DNA of 6,965 nt. Source: a virus. Position 1 is the stretch's first letter. Each line of letters begins with the position of its first letter. The stretch lies in UHGV virus genome UHGV-0228105; one strand, written 5' to 3'. Below the pieces are notes generated by a model. The model had not been told where the DNA came from, searched no databases, and was given only the letters and a program-made list of their open reading frames with translations. This document shows, piece by piece, positions 1 through 6,740 of the stretch. The position numbers were made by a program, and so were the translations under genes.

Positions 1-1825
1 CAATGCGGACCTTCCAGGCCACACCGTCAACAATAAAGCCCTCCTGCTGCTCAAGGTAAGGCTCGTCATTACCGTCAAGATAAGCCACCTCAATTGTGTC
101 CGTTCCCTGTGCTGAAAGCATGTACCATTGCTTATCACTGACTTCATCAAGGCGGGGATCGACAATAATATCCAGTTGTTTGTGGTACGGGTTATATGAA
201 CCACTGTTTGTATCGGCACCAAAAGGCGTGGTTGAGTTAACCATTTGCAACGCTCTGTCTTCCAGAGCCGCTGGAACAAGAAGGAATTTTGGCACAATAT
301 TCAGCACTTCACCGTTTTCATCCCTCTGTGTGCGCATTGCACGGCGTGCAATGCCAAGCCCTGTAGTGCTGACTCCGTTATCAATATCATTTCCGTGTTT
401 TTTGCTGAACAGCGGTATACCGTCAGAAAGCTTTGTGTTTCCTGTCAGCACCAGATGAACCAGATTACCCACCGTTCTGGCGGCTGCTCGCCCCATTGCC
501 TGTGGGATAACTGTTAACTGATTCAGGTCATCGTTAATAATCGCCTGTCGGGTAATGCTGAAAATATTTCCGTAAGTTGCCAGCGCGATTGGTTCGCCAC
601 GGTCACTGGTGGTGATGTATTTATATTCCGCGCCTTCCGGCACTTTGTTTAATGTAGAGAAGCCATTCAGGCCAACACGACGTGCCTCATGGAAGTTTGA
701 CAATGAACCTTTTTTCGTCCACTGGCGGAACGTTTCGCCGCTGTGTTCCCATCCGGCAAGCACGGATTTTTCAGCACCACCAGCAAGGATATAAGTAAAA
801 TCGCTGCTGCTGTGGGTGAATGCCGCGTTTACTATCTGCGAGCGTGTGCTGTAGCTGCCTGTGCTTATGCCGCGATGGGTTAATGATGCCTGCGCCATAT
901 CGAAAAGGCTCATCATGGCGTAAGGGTTGCCGCGTTCTGCCTGCTCGTGCCCAAGACGCGCATTAAGCCCCTGACGCATTGCATCACCCGTTATGTTGCC
1001 GTTATCCGTATATGCGTAGTAAAGATTTGCAGGTGTGGTTTTGTTTGTCGGTGTCGATTCTTTACCCATAGTGAGTAAAAGACGTTCGCGCGCATCCTCA
1101 ACGCTACACCCTGAATCAGCAAGACAACTTATAGCCAGGTCGTTATATCTTCCGTTGAACGTACCGAACAACTCACGGATCCCGTTGAGTCGTTCCTGTT
1201 CTCCGCTGGTAGTTTTCTGGCTGATCATGTTCTTAATATTTTCCGGCATATTTGAAAAATCTCCGATTCGTTTTGATTCAATTCGGGCCATTGCTGTAAT
1301 CGCGGGTATAACCTCGTCTGCGAAGCCGTTAGCCCTGCACTCGTTGCCATCCATCCAGGTTTCCGCCTCCATCATGGCGGTGATTTCCTGTTTGCTCTTC
1401 CCCGTTCTTCCGGCGTAGGTTTCCGCCATCGTGTCGCCCATCTTGTCCATCAGGTCGGCAAAGCGGCGAACATCTCCCGACACTCCGGCTGTAACGCCAC
1501 GGGGGGCGTGTATCATCATCATTGCGTTTTCAGGCATAACGATGTGATCGCCACACATGGCAATAAACGAGGCCATAGAAGCCGCCATACCTTCAATGTG
1601 TACGATTTTTTTTGCCGGATGATTTTTCAGGGCGTTATAGATAGCCAGCCCTTCAAAGATGTCACCACCTGGTGAATGAATGCTCAGATGGATTTCAGAC
1701 ACATTACCGCACGCGTTGATCTCGTCAGTAAGTGCCGATGCCTTTACACCGTACCCGCCGATCTCGTCATAAATGCGCACATGTGCAACATCTGACATAG
1801 CCTTAATGGAAAACCATGTTTTCAT
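1..1825 (-). CDS. ClpP-like (S14) prohead serine protease fused in-frame to a phage major capsid protein; start complete, 3' end runs off the left edge of the window
   Basis: Minus-strand frame is open from the ATG at 1825-1823 down to position 2 (608 codons, no stop). It is absent from the ORF track only because the stop lies outside the window. The N-terminal ~190 aa carry ClpP-type motifs (IHLSIHSPGGDIFEGLAIYNAL; GMAASMASFIAMCGD with a candidate catalytic Ser; MMMIHAPRGVTAG; ECRANGFADEVI). The C-terminal part (TYGNIFSITRQAIINDDLNQLTVIPQAMGRAAARTVGNLV ... PFGADTNSGSYNPY ... EVAYLDGNDEPYLEQQEGFIVDGVAWKVRI) looks like a phage major capsid protein. The start overlaps the upstream stop as ATGA. 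Plus-strand ORFs in 96-1418 are antisense artefacts. Confidence 0.8.
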   Translation of the reverse strand, partial: MKTWFSIKAMSDVAHVRIYDEIGGYGVKASALTDEINACGNVSEIHLSIHSPGGDIFEGLAIYNALKNHPAKKIVHIEGMAASMASFIAMCGDHIVMPENAMMMIHAPRGVTAGVSGDVRRFADLMDKMGDTMAETYAGRTGKSKQEITAMMEAETWMDGNECRANGFADEVIPAITAMARIESKRIGDFSNMPENIKNMISQKTTSGEQERLNGIRELFGTFNGRYNDLAISCLADSGCSVEDARERLLLTMGKESTPTNKTTPANLYYAYTDNGNITGDAMRQGLNARLGHEQAERGNPYAMMSLFDMAQASLTHRGISTGSYSTRSQIVNAAFTHSSSDFTYILAGGAEKSVLAGWEHSGETFRQWTKKGSLSNFHEARRVGLNGFSTLNKVPEGAEYKYITTSDRGEPIALATYGNIFSITRQAIINDDLNQLTVIPQAMGRAAARTVGNLVHLVLTGNTKLSDGIPLFSKKHGNDIDNGVSTTGLGIARRAMRTQRDENGEVLNIVPKFLLVPAALEDRALQMVNSTTPFGADTNSGSYNPYHKQLDIIVDPRLDEVSDKQWYMLSAQGTDTIEVAYLDGNDEPYLEQQEGFIVDGVAWKVRI

Positions 1826-2016
1826 AGCCAGGCTCCTAACGTTGCCTGGTACCAGTATTCAACCGCGCTGCGTGTGATTTGTCCTTTCGTGGGTACTGGC
1901 ATACCCGGGTGATTATCTTTGATGAACTGCTGATAGCGTTCGATCTTCTCCATAGTTCCGGCGTCTATGTGTACCGTGGCACTTTTATCCGGCTTTCTGG
2001 TGTTGTTCTCTGGCAT
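1822..2016 (-). CDS. Small protein (64 aa), possibly ribbon-helix-helix DNA-binding; translationally coupled to the protease-capsid gene
   Basis: ORF-track ORF 1822..2049 (75 aa). The internal ATG at 2016-2014 has a near-ideal Shine-Dalgarno (GGAGGCGGA, 7 nt spacer), so the start is placed there; 2049 is the alternative. Sequence MPENNTRKPDKSATVHIDAGTMEKIERYQQFIKDNHPGMPVPTKGQITRSAVEYWYQATLGAWL fits a strand-helix-loop-helix pattern. Stop TGA overlaps the downstream ATG (ATGA). Confidence 0.55.
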   Translation of the reverse strand: MPENNTRKPDKSATVHIDAGTMEKIERYQQFIKDNHPGMPVPTKGQITRSAVEYWYQATLGAWL

Positions 2017-2211
2017 AAATCCGCCTCCGTTTTGATTAACGGGCATCATTATTGATCGATAAAAGTAATAGATAAATCATTTTCTACCTGAAAATCAGAT
2101 TATGTTTTTTCTGATTATTCTCAGAGAGGCAAAGCCATTGACGCATTTTTGCTATTGAAGCAATATTAAGACTCGTCATCCTGGCGATAAAAACTCCTTT
2201 GTCGTGTAAAA

Positions 2212-2247
2212 GCGCCTCCGGTAACAGCAATCGGGGGCGCTTTTTTT
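2212..2247 (+). terminator. Rho-independent terminator-like hairpin, strongest on the plus strand
   Basis: GCGCCTCCG (2212-2220) / CGGGGGCGC (2232-2240) form a 9-bp stem with one G-U wobble on the plus-strand RNA, 11-nt loop, followed by T7 (2241-2247). On the minus strand the same stem has a C-A mismatch and only a 4-U tail. Confidence 0.45.
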
Positions 2248-2444
2248 GCGCCTGTTTTTTTGTAAATGTTTTCGGGAACGCTCCAGTGATGAACGAAAAA
2301 CAACCTTATTCGACACTAAAAATTTTTATTCCTCAATATATCAATAACTTATAGTGGTGGTGATGGTGCCATAAAAATCAAAAAATGCGCCTTTTTCCGC
2401 GCCCCTCCGCCCCGTGGACAGGCTCACCCCGCCAGGAGGACCCG

Positions 2445-2468
2445 CAAAAAAGCCGGATTGCTCCGGCT
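2445..2468 (-). terminator. Rho-independent terminator of the upstream minus-strand small genes
   Basis: Minus-strand RNA: stem GCCGGA / UCCGGC, or 7 bp if the flanking A-U pair is counted (plus 2451-2457 and 2462-2468), GCAA tetraloop (GNRA type), then a U5-6 tract (plus A-tract 2446-2450). Lies 7 nt downstream of the stop at 2475-2477. Confidence 0.55.
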
Positions 2469-2474
2469 GTGTGA

Positions 2475-2750
2475 TTAGCTGTCCTGGTAATTGCGCCATA
2501 TTTCATCGCTTACACCATCTATACCCATTTCAGCATAAGTGCGATCTACTGCCTTTCTCAGGTCACCGAAGTTATCCGGCGGCTCCGGTGGCCTCTGTGC
2601 CTTCCTGGAACATTCCAGCCGTCGCATCGTAACCTGATGCCGTTCCTTGTCTGTCTCCACCAGCAGCATGACTTCACCCCATCGCGCCGCCGCCCTCCGG
2701 TAAAAGCCTTTCGCCTCGAGTTCCTCCGCTATGCGGTCATGTACCATCAC
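2475..2750 (-). CDS. Small protein (91 aa), tentatively PerC/Pch-family transcriptional activator-like
   Basis: ORF-track ORF; overlaps the upstream ORF by 14 nt and is followed by a terminator. N-terminal segment DRIAEELEAKGFYRRAAARWGEVML matches my recollection of the PerC-family signature (acidic helix then RRAA-RW). This is recalled, not searched. Confidence 0.5.
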   Translation of the reverse strand: MMVHDRIAEELEAKGFYRRAAARWGEVMLLVETDKERHQVTMRRLECSRKAQRPPEPPDNFGDLRKAVDRTYAEMGIDGVSDEIWRNYQDS

Positions 2751-3021
2751 CTGACTCTCCGGTTTTTACGTTGATGGTTGTTACCTGTTCCGCTTCGGCA
2801 ATCTCCCGTTCTGTCATCGTGGCAAAGTTTGCCGACGCCGTGGTCATGAATGCGCTTATCAGTTCGGGATGTTCCTTCGCGTATCCTTCCCCGGCGTGGC
2901 GGTCTATCGTTCTGATTGCCACCTTTAATGCGTGCTCTGTCATGTCTAACGCGCGATATTTCGGTTCTGTTCTGTCTCTGCATTTTTTGAGTGATTTGTT
3001 AAATTTCCCTGAAGTGTGCAT
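2737..3021 (-). CDS. Hypothetical protein (94 aa)
   Basis: ORF-track ORF with protein-like composition. Purine-rich GAGGGGG lies ~11 nt upstream of the ATG at 3021. Sits immediately downstream of the iteron region. A competing 78-aa arginine-rich ORF (2747..2983) in another frame is judged spurious. Confidence 0.5.
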   Translation of the reverse strand: MHTSGKFNKSLKKCRDRTEPKYRALDMTEHALKVAIRTIDRHAGEGYAKEHPELISAFMTTASANFATMTEREIAEAEQVTTINVKTGESGDGT

Positions 3022-6229: not shown

Positions 6230-6308
6230 AAATTTACCTCTCTATAGTGTTTGTGGTTAGAGGCCCTGCTAGTGGTAGCGACACTTGCGGGGCTTTGCAT
6301 TTATGAAC

Positions 6309-6361
6309 CCTGAGCAGCTCAGGTGTGGCCCACTATATGTTTTAGGTGTGGCCCACGTCAA
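6309..6361 (-). promoter_or_regulatory. Control region: predicted sigma70-like promoter for the minus-strand operon, overlapped by a perfect palindrome and two 13-bp direct repeats
   Basis: On the minus strand: -35 TTGACG (plus 6356-6361), 18-nt spacer, -10 TATAGT (plus 6332-6337). Direct repeats AGGTGTGGCCCAC at 6321-6333 and 6344-6356, each containing GTGG-N-CCAC, with 23 bp between starts. Perfect palindrome CCTGAGC-A-GCTCAGG at 6309-6323, at or just downstream of the predicted start site. Confidence 0.45.
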
Positions 6362-6422
6362 GGGTTTTATTTGCGCTTTTTCTGTGTATACTGTCCCCCA
6401 CCAATCAACAGGAGAAACAGCA

Positions 6423-6602
6423 ATGGCAACGGGTACAACAAACGCAAAATCACAAGCTTTAAAGGCTCGTGTACCGCATGAAATAGTTGACGCAATGGAA
6501 TCAGTGAAAGACTCAGGCGAAAGCACATCACAATTTATCATTACGTCAATGCAAGGCGAGATCAAACGCCGCCAGCGCCGCAAGGCCAAAGAAGCGGAAT
6601 AA
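6423..6602 (+). CDS. Small ribbon-helix-helix (CopG/Arc-like) DNA-binding protein, 59 aa; candidate repressor
   Basis: ATG at 6423 preceded by AGGAGA (6410-6415, 7-nt spacer). Sequence MATGTTNAKSQALKARVPHEIVDAMESVKDSGESTSQFIITSMQGEIKRRQRRKAKEAE fits strand (LKARVP), helix (HEIVDAMESVKDSG), helix (STSQFIITSMQGEI). It is the only plus-strand gene, divergent from the operon and convergent with alpA. The overlapping 153-aa minus ORF (6269..6730) is judged spurious. Confidence 0.55.
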   Translation: MATGTTNAKSQALKARVPHEIVDAMESVKDSGESTSQFIITSMQGEIKRRQRRKAKEAE

Positions 6603-6690
6603 TCCACCAGCAAACCACCACACTGATCACATTGCCCACCAGCCAGCAAATCGCTATGATGTTCGGGCTTATGTTTAGTGTTTTCCCATT

Positions 6691-6721
6691 GGCGACCTCT
6701 GATCCGGGTCGCCTTTGTTTT
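6691..6721 (+). terminator. Rho-independent terminator downstream of the RHH gene
   Basis: GGCGACC (6691-6697) / GGTCGCC (6707-6713) form a 7-bp perfect stem with a 9-nt loop, followed by TTTGTTTT (6714-6721). No U-tract on the minus-strand side, so it is unidirectional. Confidence 0.5.
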
Positions 6722-6740
6722 ATGTGTCATATGCTCCCCT

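What the first reader, a model, noticed from the sequence alone, without database searches (positions are those of the whole stretch)
1822..2049. Small RHH-like protein translationally coupled to the protease-capsid gene
A 64-aa ORF with a strong Shine-Dalgarno (GGAGG, 7-nt spacer) ends in an ATGA overlap with the protease-capsid start. Its sequence has a strand-helix-helix layout (ATVHID; MEKIERYQQFIKDN; TKGQITRSAVEYWYQ) like Arc/CopG-type DNA binders. In the position where a small terminase or packaging-specificity factor would be expected, a tiny DNA-binding protein could be a packaging-site recognition or redirection factor, or a late-operon regulator.
Basis: inference. Interest (0 to 1): 0.45.

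Follow-up and report, generated by a model that had tools for sequence, protein, structure and literature searches.

The report
Small partner gene of satellite capsid
A real, strongly conserved 64-residue protein of unknown family sits in front of the capsid gene carried by a group of enterobacterial phage satellites; it is most likely a small DNA-binding regulator of that capsid operon, but neither its fold nor its role is proven.

Summary
On the minus strand a 64-aa ORF (2016-1825; 75 aa if read from 2049) has a GGAGG Shine-Dalgarno with a 7-nt spacer. Its stop overlaps the start of a ClpP-protease/major-capsid fusion gene (ATGA). The window is a Gram-negative PICI-type phage satellite (alpA, D5 primase, PerC, cos site, capsid gene).

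The ORF is a true gene: 92 protein clusters, all hits that carry a source name from Enterobacterales, synonymous sites saturated, dN/dS about 0.05-0.12. It is absent from 50,697 phage records.

It is found only, and nearly always, directly upstream of a satellite-specific lineage of the capsid fusion gene. Of 80 capsid loci, it occurs in 8 of 9 satellite-lineage loci and 0 of 71 helper-lineage loci. The 4-bp overlap is always kept. A terminator and a conserved sigma-70-like promoter always lie upstream.

The RHH idea is plausible but unproven. There is no significant HMM or fold match. AlphaFold gives coil-helix-helix at pLDDT 67. The alignment to ParG is in the RHH register but weak (P about 0.005-0.009).

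The packaging-specificity idea is disfavoured. The cos site changes position among relatives while the ORF stays with the capsid gene, and relatives carry TerS-derived genes next to cos.

Best guess: an autoregulator of the satellite capsid operon (confidence 0.4). Main rival: a capsid-assembly cofactor.

The parts
1825..2016 (-). Small ORF, 64 aa (stop TGA at 1824-1822). Member of an uncharacterised family (phrog_4934) found so far only in Enterobacterales.
2024..2028 (-). Shine-Dalgarno GGAGG, 7 nt before ATG 2016
   Evidence: Purine-rich SD in all orthologous loci.
1822..1825 (-). ATGA stop/start overlap with the capsid fusion gene. The same 4-bp overlap occurs in every relative examined.
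1833..1837 (-). AGGAG Shine-Dalgarno of the capsid gene, encoded within the conserved C-terminal L-G-A-W codons of the small ORF
2..1825 (-). ClpP-like prohead protease / HK97-type major capsid fusion gene (3' end beyond the window). It belongs to a satellite-specific lineage.
2048..2076 (-). Conserved sigma-70-like promoter block: -35 TTTATC (2076-2071), 17-nt spacer ending in GATC (2057-2054), -10 AATAAT (2053-2048). An A/T-rich UP-like stretch lies upstream (about 2077-2100).
   Evidence: consensus matches conserved in 17 distinct satellites; not shown to be functional
2027..2043 (-). Inverted repeat CCCGTT-N5-AACGG in the predicted 5' UTR. Its 3' arm overlaps the SD by one base. Seen in the E. 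coli type only.
2283..2450 (-). cos site: cosQ-like GGGTCCT at 2443-2437, cosN-like GGGCGGAGGGGC at 2412-2401, and the cosB-side region. It is 91.7% identical to the cos region just upstream of terS in phage 1720a-02.
2451..2468 (-). Intrinsic-terminator-like hairpin plus T-run, 7 nt after the perC stop codon (2477-2475). It separates the early/replication genes from the cos and capsid unit.
   Evidence: Equivalent terminators lie upstream of the promoter in relatives.

Best explanation
The ORF encodes a small dimeric DNA-binding protein, probably ribbon-helix-helix-like, with strand T14-D18, helix 19-35, a proline-rich loop and helix 44-60. It is the first gene of the satellite's own capsid operon and regulates that operon, most simply as a CopG/Arc-style autorepressor acting at the conserved promoter just upstream (about 2100-2017).

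Transcription starts after a terminator, from a sigma-70-like promoter with an A/T-rich upstream element. The regulator and the protease-capsid fusion are translated from one mRNA with a 4-bp stop/start overlap. Capsid output would therefore be tied to regulator level and buffered as the satellite replicates.

Shown here: the gene is real, under strong purifying selection, satellite-specific, and invariably linked and coupled to the satellite-lineage capsid gene behind a conserved promoter. Inferred: the fold, the dimer, DNA binding, the operator and the sign of regulation.
For: - Strict linkage. In all 15 distinct satellite arrangements read here, the ORF abuts the ClpP-MCP fusion with a 4-bp overlap. 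These differ in replication module (D5 primase or AAA_25) and in integration site (cspD/clpS region, fis, or a helper prophage's own capsid gene).
- Lineage specificity. Among 80 capsid-fusion loci from species genomes, the ORF is in 8 of 9 satellite-lineage loci and 0 of 71 helper-lineage loci.
- Own transcription unit. A terminator is followed by a conserved -35/17 nt/-10 block 31-37 nt before the ATG in 8 of the 9 satellites scored, and the same block is seen by eye in the 17 upstream regions. First-gene position with an overlapped downstream gene is the classic layout of RHH autoregulators (CopG-RepB, Arc-Ant, omega-epsilon-zeta; established knowledge).
- Sequence pattern and AF2 secondary structure fit strand-helix-helix with a basic N-terminal tail.
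- hhalign to ParG 1p94 aligns 46-47 columns across the whole RHH domain in register: P 0.009 (single sequence) and 0.005 (ParG family profile), and 0 of 300 shuffles reach the observed score.
- RHH_1 gives a sub-threshold hit on strand plus helix A in one member.
- No similarity to any helper structural protein (TerS, gpW-like, portal, capsid), which argues against a captured structural fragment.
Against: - No significant match to any RHH model in Pfam, NCBIfam or PDB sequences.
- The AF2 model is of low-to-moderate confidence (pLDDT 67) and monomeric, so no ribbon is seen.
- The helix-helix connection is an 8-residue HPxxPxPx loop rather than the canonical short G-x-S/T/N turn.
- The ParG alignment is no stronger than an equally weak alignment to the unrelated YbdD/Sel_put family (P 0.004). 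It is not significant after correcting for about 15 comparisons.
- No clear repeated operator could be defined in the promoter; only recurrent GAT/ATC-containing motifs and a conserved GATC were seen.
- Translational coupling to a highly expressed structural protein would equally suit a stoichiometric protein partner.
Confidence: 0.4

Rival explanations
1. The protein is a protein-binding cofactor of the satellite's own protease-capsid fusion. It could be a chaperone, a protease regulator, or a size- or assembly-directing factor, made in a fixed ratio with the capsid protein. With it, the diverged satellite capsid protein would build or poison capsids together with helper parts. This would be a two-component analogue of SaPIbov5 Ccm or SaPI CpmAB.
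For: - Perfect co-inheritance with a satellite-specific capsid lineage. Satellite capsids are 58-88% identical to each other and only 48-58% identical to helper capsids, while helper capsids are 64-72% identical to each other. The co-occurrence is 8 of 9 against 0 of 71.
- Invariant translational coupling.
- No detectable DNA-binding domain.
- The most conserved segment is the proline-rich loop and helix 2 (HPxxPxPxxxQIVRxxVxxW), which could be a protein interface.
- The role of PICI capsid genes is an open question: deleting the capsid gene of EcCICFT073 did not relieve interference with lambda (PMC6092414).
Against: - No similarity to any known scaffold or size-determination protein, or to any region of the capsid fusion.
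- The basic N-terminal tail and strand-like motif are more typical of DNA binders.
- 4-bp overlaps are common in phage operons and do not by themselves imply a complex.
Confidence: 0.3
2. The protein is an interference factor aimed at the helper. It would be a small DNA binder or protein inhibitor that reduces helper late or capsid gene expression or helper head assembly, so that the satellite's capsid protein prevails. This is analogous to PLE CapR or SaPI Pti proteins.
For: - It is satellite-specific and absent from 50,697 phage records.
- It is expressed together with the satellite's replacement capsid gene.
- Helper-embedded relatives insert into the helper's own protease-capsid gene, which shows that this satellite group manipulates helper capsid supply.
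Against: - Lambdoid late genes are one long Q-antiterminated transcript with no dedicated capsid promoter to repress (established knowledge).
- Nothing found here links the protein to helper DNA or helper proteins.
Confidence: 0.12
3. The protein is a packaging-specificity factor. It would bind at or near cos, or bind the helper TerS, and redirect the terminase to satellite DNA, in the manner of Rpp.
For: In this window and in its E. coli relative it is the first ORF downstream of cos, where terS sits in the helper phage. The E. coli relative L001 has two cos sites flanking the small ORF and capsid module.
Against: - The cos position is not conserved. In Klebsiella, Yersinia and other satellites cos lies downstream of the capsid gene, while the ORF keeps its place.
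- The window's cos, including the cosB side, is 91.7% identical to a helper-type phage, so no redirection is needed.
- Relatives carry a full-length (153-161 aa) or truncated (61-74 aa, N-terminal HTH) DUF1441 TerS homologue next to cos. These are better candidates for that role.
- There is no similarity to TerS. Rpp proteins are 144-153 aa TerS mimics (PMC6739421).
Confidence: 0.08
4. The ORF is mainly a leader ORF. Its translation would deliver ribosomes to, or unmask, the capsid gene start, and the peptide itself would have little function.
For: The last codons (L-G-A-W) double as the capsid gene's Shine-Dalgarno, and the stop overlaps the start.
Against: - Strong amino-acid conservation across the whole length, with saturated synonymous sites.
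- The divergent subfamily keeps the core residues but not the LGAW end.
- The capsid gene has its own good SD.
Confidence: 0.05

Closest known systems
Ribbon-helix-helix autoregulators (CopG of pMV158, Arc/Mnt of P22, omega of pSM19035, ParG of TP228)
   Same: - Similar size (45-76 aa) and a basic N-terminal tail.
- An alternating strand-like motif followed by two amphipathic helices.
- First gene of an operon, with the stop overlapping the next gene (CopG, Arc, omega).
- A profile alignment to ParG 1p94 covers the whole RHH domain in register.
   Different: - No significant sequence or fold match.
- An 8-residue proline-rich loop replaces the G-x-S/T/N turn.
- The downstream gene is a phage-type capsid fusion, not a replication, toxin or partition gene.
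- Dimerisation and DNA binding are untested.
Rpp proteins of E. coli PICIs (RppA/B/C; Fillol-Salom et al. 2019, PMC6739421)
   Same: A small protein encoded only by satellites, in the late region of a Gram-negative PICI that carries a lambda-like cos site.
   Different: - Rpp proteins are 144-153 aa and mimic the TerS DNA-binding domain. They act with a satellite-specific cosB.
- This protein is 64 aa, shows no TerS similarity and tracks the capsid gene rather than cos.
- Here the cosB side is helper-like.
Satellite capsid-redirection systems (SaPIbov5 Ccm; SaPI1 CpmA/CpmB; P4 Sid/Psu; PLE TcaP)
   Same: The satellite carries its own diverged homologue of the helper major capsid protein, as with Ccm. 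The small ORF is its invariable partner, recalling small accessory proteins such as the 72-aa CpmB (size from memory).
   Different: - No sequence similarity to any of them.
- No evidence here that this satellite makes small capsids.
- The related PICI EcCICFT073, which has a lambda E-type capsid gene, is packaged in full-size heads (PMC6092414).
Gram-negative PICIs and helper-embedded satellites with a captured capsid gene in the 'late zone' (Fillol-Salom 2018, PMC6092414; Tommasini et al. 2022, bioRxiv 10.1101/2022.07.18.500453)
   Same: The element as a whole fits this description: alpA, a DUF3950/YlcI-like gene, DUF4222, D5 primase, then cos and a capsid gene. Relatives sit at fis or inside a helper prophage's protease-capsid gene.
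   Different: - The parts of those papers read here describe the capsid gene but do not mention a conserved small upstream partner.
- Here the capsid gene is a ClpP-MCP fusion of a distinct, old satellite lineage rather than a recent capture.
YbdD/YjiX small proteins (Pfam Sel_put, PF04328)
   Same: Similar length and a shared local motif, Y-x-x-h-h-[RK]-x-N-H-P-[DE]-x-P. Sub-threshold hits occur in 11 of 32 members. hhalign gives P 0.004.
   Different: - Scores are 12-14 bits against a cut-off of 25, and only about 21 residues align.
- The genomic context is unrelated; by my recollection YbdD/YjiX lie downstream of CstA-type transporters.

Membership tests
Ribbon-helix-helix superfamily (Arc/MetJ/CopG) | Significant sequence or profile match to an RHH family | tested here: not met
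   No Pfam or NCBIfam hit for the window protein. RHH_1 reaches E 0.14 (12.6 bits against a cut-off of 20.5) in 1 of 35 members. PDB sequence profile search finds nothing. hhalign to ParG gives P 0.005-0.009, HH-suite probability 4-7%.
Ribbon-helix-helix superfamily (Arc/MetJ/CopG) | N-terminal beta-strand followed by two alpha-helices within about 45 residues | tested here: inconclusive
Ribbon-helix-helix superfamily (Arc/MetJ/CopG) | Short turn with a G-x-S/T/N motif between helix A and helix B | tested here: not met
   The connection is an 8-residue loop, H-P-x-x-P-x-P-x, with three (nearly) invariant prolines. It aligns as an insertion relative to ParG's K-G-T-S turn.
Ribbon-helix-helix superfamily (Arc/MetJ/CopG) | Obligate homodimer with an antiparallel two-stranded ribbon that binds repeated operator subsites | not testable with these tools
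Only recurrent GAT/ATC motifs and a conserved GATC were seen in the promoter.
Rpp (redirecting phage packaging) proteins | A protein of about 144-153 aa whose N-terminal domain mimics the helper TerS DNA-binding domain | tested here: not met
   The protein is 64 aa. tblastn against the helper locus (1720a-02) finds no similarity to any of its genes, and its TerS, gpW-like and portal sequences show no visible resemblance. Rpp sizes are from PMC6739421.
Rpp (redirecting phage packaging) proteins | Works with a satellite cos whose cosB differs from that of the helper | tested here: not met
   Window 2450-2283, including the cosB side, is 91.7% identical to phage 1720a-02 up to its terS start. The cos position varies among relatives.
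Small terminase (DUF1441 / Nu1 type) | Sequence match to the helper-type TerS family | tested here: not met
   The helper TerS matches DUF1441 at E 6.9e-49. Relatives carry separate DUF1441 genes. The small ORF has no such match.
phrog_4934 (PHROGs, unknown function) | Profile match over the full length | tested here: met
   E 6.6e-42, with residues 1-64 aligned to profile positions 12-75 of 75. The family has no annotated function.
Sel_put / YbdD-YjiX (PF04328) | Score above the Pfam gathering threshold | tested here: not met
   Scores are 12-14 bits against a cut-off of 25, on residues 26-46 only.
Gram-negative PICI / helper-embedded satellite (the element that carries the ORF) | alpA, a primase or replicase, helper-type cos and late-zone capsid gene, with no tail or lysis genes; an integrase next to alpA in complete relatives | tested here: met
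   Pfam and PHROG assignments for the window. Complete relatives carry an integrase and have chromosomal or prophage insertion sites. The cos site is shown.

The most novel reading that the evidence does not exclude
The small protein and the diverged ClpP-protease/capsid fusion would form an old, satellite-only two-gene machine. The small protein would be a dedicated cofactor: a size determinant, an assembly switch, or an inhibitor of the helper's protease-capsid protein. It would let the satellite's capsid protein co-assemble with helper portal, terminase and tails into satellite-specific heads. This would explain what capsid genes in classical Gram-negative PICIs are for.
Probability: 0.2. 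Interest if true: 0.7.

Novelty: new variant of a known kind. Interest (0 to 1): 0.42.

Why it matters
Many Gram-negative PICIs and helper-embedded satellites carry a copy of a capsid gene. Its function is unknown: deleting it in EcCICFT073 did not relieve interference with the helper.

This work shows that one widespread class of these capsid genes is a separate, old satellite lineage. It never travels without a small, highly conserved, uncharacterised partner gene behind its own conserved promoter. That defines a compact two-gene module to test.

If the partner is a regulator, it gives a handle on how satellites time capsid expression. If it is an assembly cofactor, it would be a new capsid-hijacking mechanism in lambdoid or Stx-type helper systems of pathogenic E. 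coli.

Tried and rejected
- Pfam, NCBIfam and PADLOC scans of the protein and of 32-35 family members gave no family above threshold.
- PDB sequence profile searches found nothing.
- Two AlphaFold2 runs gave pLDDT 60 and 67.
- A full HMMER scan of 1.84 billion representatives found only 7 clusters, all close relatives.
- The first genome-contig scan with the 64-aa protein returned nothing confirmable. It was replaced by a scan with the capsid alignment.
- I tested whether the ORF is a remnant of a helper gene (portal 3' end, gpW-like, TerS, capsid interior). There was no similarity at protein level, and no nucleotide similarity at the capsid junction.
- I looked for EcCICFT073 in CFT073 by guessed coordinates and hit an unrelated lambdoid prophage, so I did not pursue it.
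- hhalign against eight RHH proteins and six controls written from memory gave only ParG (sequence then verified against 1p94, one residue corrected) and YbdD with P below 0.01. Neither is significant after multiple testing.
- A canonical LexA box in the promoters of the 59-aa type was rejected. The motif is CTG-N9-CAG, one base short.
- The 153-aa minus-strand ORF at 6269-6730 has the same length as RppC. I judged it spurious, because it is antisense to a YlcI/YnfO-family gene and has no family match.
Full report
**What is in the window**

All the relevant genes run on the minus strand. From high to low coordinates they are:
- an AlpA-family gene (6965-6744);
- a divergently oriented YlcI/YnfO (DUF3950-type) gene on the plus strand;
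- several small ORFs and a DUF4222 gene;
- a D5/P4-type primase (5057-3312);
- a phrog_1231 protein and a PerC-family regulator (2750-2478);
- a non-coding stretch;
- the small ORF under study;
- a gene that runs off the left end and matches Clp_protease (E 4e-33) and Phage_capsid_4 (E 4.8e-49).

Complete relatives in E. coli add a tyrosine integrase and sit between clpS and cspD. This is the gene order of Gram-negative phage-inducible chromosomal islands and of the helper-embedded satellites described by Tommasini et al..

**The observation**

The longest ORF is 2049-1822 (75 aa). The 64-aa reading starts at ATG 2016. It is preceded by GGAGG (2028-2024) with a 7-nt spacer. Its TGA (1824-1822) overlaps the capsid gene's ATG (1825-1823).

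The 64-aa start is supported in two ways. Orthologues begin at the same Met. A conserved -10-like hexamer lies on top of the upstream ATG.

**It is a real gene**

- It matches phrog_4934 (unknown function) at E 6.6e-42.
- It occurs in 151 of 5,426 complete E. coli genomes, always under or next to a 'ClpP-like prohead protease/major capsid protein fusion' annotation.
- Three searches of the 5.8-billion-protein collection gave 92 clusters in two subfamilies, of 59-64 aa and 63-70 aa. Every hit that carries a source name is from Enterobacterales and is called 'hypothetical'.
- A word-index-free HMMER scan of 1.84 billion representatives found only seven clusters.
- There was no match in 50,697 phage records. 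The single plasmid hit is a satellite inside a prophage on a Rahnella megaplasmid.
- Between genera, synonymous sites are saturated (pS 0.70-0.84) while pN is 0.15-0.30. Where dS is computable, dN/dS is about 0.05-0.12.
- Residues H16, T21, Y28 and P37 are invariant across both subfamilies. V15, D18, A19, P40, P42, Q46, R49, V52 and W55 are nearly so.

**What it is linked to**

In every satellite read, the ORF is immediately upstream of the protease-capsid fusion with the same 4-bp overlap. These are the window plus relatives from E. coli, Rahnella, Yersinia, Klebsiella, Moellerella, Kosakonia and metagenomes. The linkage holds although the replication module differs (D5 primase or AAA_25 helicase) and the insertion site differs (cspD/clpS region, fis, other chromosomal sites, or the helper prophage's own protease-capsid gene).

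The satellite capsid proteins are 58-88% identical to one another. They are only 48-58% identical to helper-phage capsid proteins, which are 64-72% identical among themselves. The satellite gene is therefore an old separate lineage, not a recent capture.

I then took 80 capsid-fusion loci from one-genome-per-species data and searched them with a profile of the small protein.
- Eight loci have the ORF, abutting the capsid start. They are exactly the loci whose capsid is 56-62% identical to the window's.
- The ninth satellite-lineage locus has a 5'-truncated capsid gene.
- None of the 71 helper-lineage loci has the ORF.

The protein shows no similarity to the helper's TerS, gpW-like protein, portal or capsid fusion. 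Its conserved C-terminal L-G-A-W codons double as the capsid gene's Shine-Dalgarno in subfamily 1. The divergent subfamily 2 lacks that ending but keeps the core.

**The non-coding region upstream**

Window 2450-2283 is a cos site. It aligns with lambda cosQ and cosN: GGGTCCT at 2443-2437 and GGGCGGAGGGGC at 2412-2401. It is 91.7% identical to the region just upstream of terS in phage 1720a-02. That phage is a lambdoid with a DUF1441-type TerS, a portal and a Clp-protease/capsid fusion. The likely helpers are therefore Stx-type or lambdoid phages with this head module.

A terminator-like hairpin (2468-2451) follows perC.

Between cos and the ORF lies a block conserved in 17 distinct satellites:
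- an A/T-rich stretch;
- a -35-like TTTATC/TTTACT (window 2076-2071);
- a 17-nt spacer that ends in GATC in 15 of 17 cases (window 2057-2054);
- a -10-like AATAAT/TATGAT (window 2053-2048), 31-37 nt before the ATG in 8 of the 9 satellites scored.

In the relatives a terminator always precedes this block. The small ORF and the capsid gene therefore form their own transcription unit. These are consensus matches; no transcription data were available.

**Is it a packaging factor?**

In this window the ORF is indeed the first gene after cos. But the arrangement varies in relatives:
- In the Klebsiella and Yersinia satellites and in the metagenome-derived L016/L017, cos lies downstream of the capsid gene.
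- There it is followed by a truncated (61-74 aa, N-terminal HTH) or full-length (153-161 aa) DUF1441 TerS homologue.
- The E. coli relative L001 has two cos sites flanking the module.

The ORF follows the capsid gene, not cos. The window's cosB side is helper-like, so no Rpp-style redirection is needed. Rpp proteins are 144-153 aa TerS mimics. I rate this reading at about 0.08.

**Is it RHH?**

For:
- The family has a basic N-terminal tail and an alternating (T/S)-V-H-(I/L)-D segment.
- It has an amphipathic helix and a second helix, QIVRxAVNxWL, that resembles helix B of CopG/ParG-type proteins.
- AlphaFold2 with 32 sequences gives coil 1-18, helix 19-35, loop 36-43 and helix 44-60.
- hhalign to ParG aligns 46-47 columns over the entire RHH domain in register. 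The ParG sequence was checked against PDB 1p94. P is 0.009 with the single sequence and 0.005 with a 10-member ParG profile. None of 300 shuffled targets reaches the observed score.

Against:
- No RHH model in Pfam or NCBIfam matches. The best is RHH_1 at E 0.14 in one member.
- The model is monomeric and of modest confidence.
- The helices are joined by an atypical 8-residue proline-rich loop.
- An equally weak alignment exists to YbdD/Sel_put (P 0.004).

I put the RHH fold at roughly even odds. It is not a demonstrated family member.

**Most likely mechanism**

The protein is a small, basic protein with a strand-helix-helix pattern. Its gene is the first in an operon, with its stop overlapping the next gene, behind a conserved promoter that follows a terminator. 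That is the standard layout of RHH autoregulators such as CopG, Arc and omega.

I therefore commit to a dimeric DNA-binding regulator of the satellite capsid operon, probably an autorepressor acting at about 2100-2017 (confidence 0.4). Only the linkage, the coupling, the conservation and the promoter-like architecture are shown. The fold, dimerisation, DNA binding and direction of control are inferred.

The main rival (0.3) is a protein cofactor of the satellite's diverged protease-capsid fusion. The perfect co-inheritance of the two genes and the lack of any detectable DNA-binding domain make this a serious alternative. It would also be the more novel outcome. The remaining readings are anti-helper interference (0.12), a packaging factor (0.08) and a mere leader ORF (0.05).

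**Novelty and interest**

The element type is known. Capsid genes in Gram-negative PICIs have been noted before, without a function (PMC6092414; bioRxiv 10.1101/2022.07.18.500453). What appears new is that one class of these capsid genes is an old satellite-specific lineage, invariably paired with an uncharacterised small protein behind a conserved promoter.

That makes the module a well-defined experimental target, but nothing here is categorically surprising. Interest is 0.42.

Noticed in passing
window 2283-2450 (minus strand): This is a complete lambda-like cos site: cosQ-like 2443-2437, cosN-like 2412-2401, and the cosB side. It is 91.7% identical to the region upstream of terS in Stx-type phage 1720a-02 and also matches CP-1639, VT1-Sakai and mEp460. 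This points to lambdoid phages with a DUF1441 TerS and a ClpP-MCP head module as helpers.
   Followed up: yes
L001 8819-8918 and 11284-11469: The closest E. coli relative has two cos sites, one on each side of the small ORF and capsid module. This recalls cos1 and cos2 of EcCICFT073. The window ends before the position of a possible second site.
   Followed up: partly
L007 12252-12476; L010 12320-12505; L019 8270-8494; L020 8245-8469; L016 10308-10769; L101 9382-9867: Satellite relatives carry, right after a cos site downstream of the capsid gene, either a truncated (61-74 aa) N-terminal HTH piece or a full-length copy (153-161 aa) of the helper-type small terminase (DUF1441). The truncated forms could act as Rpp-like TerS decoys.
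   Followed up: partly
L002 (Rahnella plasmid), L008 (Yersinia), L018 (Kosakonia), L019 (metagenome): In these loci the whole satellite is inserted inside the helper prophage's own ClpP-protease/capsid gene, splitting it after roughly 100-200 codons. The satellite brings its own diverged copy. These are helper-embedded satellites of the kind described by Tommasini et al.
   Followed up: partly
window 2054-2057, and the equivalent position in 15 of 17 satellites: A single GATC (Dam site) lies directly against the -10-like hexamer of the capsid-operon promoter. The promoter might therefore respond to the methylation state of freshly replicated satellite DNA.
   Followed up: no
L007, L014, L019, L020, L024-L026 (about 15-30 nt before the small ORF start): Satellites with the 59-aa form have a conserved CTG-N9-CAG element (for example CTGTATAAATATCAG) between the -10 hexamer and the Shine-Dalgarno. 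It looks like a LexA box but is one base short. It could be an operator.
   Followed up: no
window 2027-2043 (minus strand): The inverted repeat CCCGTT-N5-AACGG lies in the predicted 5' UTR. Its 3' arm overlaps the Shine-Dalgarno of the small ORF by one base. It occurs in the E. coli type only and may modulate translation.
   Followed up: no
window 2236-2252: The hairpin GGCGC-A7-GCGCC lies between cos and the promoter block. Read on the plus strand it is followed by a T-run and scores as a terminator, so it would stop antisense transcription coming out of the capsid region.
   Followed up: no
window 6285-6602 (+) and 6269-6730 (-): The plus-strand ORF carries a YlcI/YnfO-family domain (NF041551, E 1.6e-18, residues 55-96). 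The gene annotated at this place in relative L001 is 59 aa, so its real start is probably an internal codon rather than 6285. The overlapping 153-aa minus-strand ORF has no family match and is probably spurious.
   Followed up: partly
window 2478-2750 and 2740-3021 (minus strand): A PerC-family transcriptional activator (E 2.4e-45) lies directly upstream of cos and is preceded by a phrog_1231 protein. PerC could be the activator of the capsid-operon promoter. In relative L001 an SSB gene occupies this position and a PerC gene lies elsewhere.
   Followed up: no
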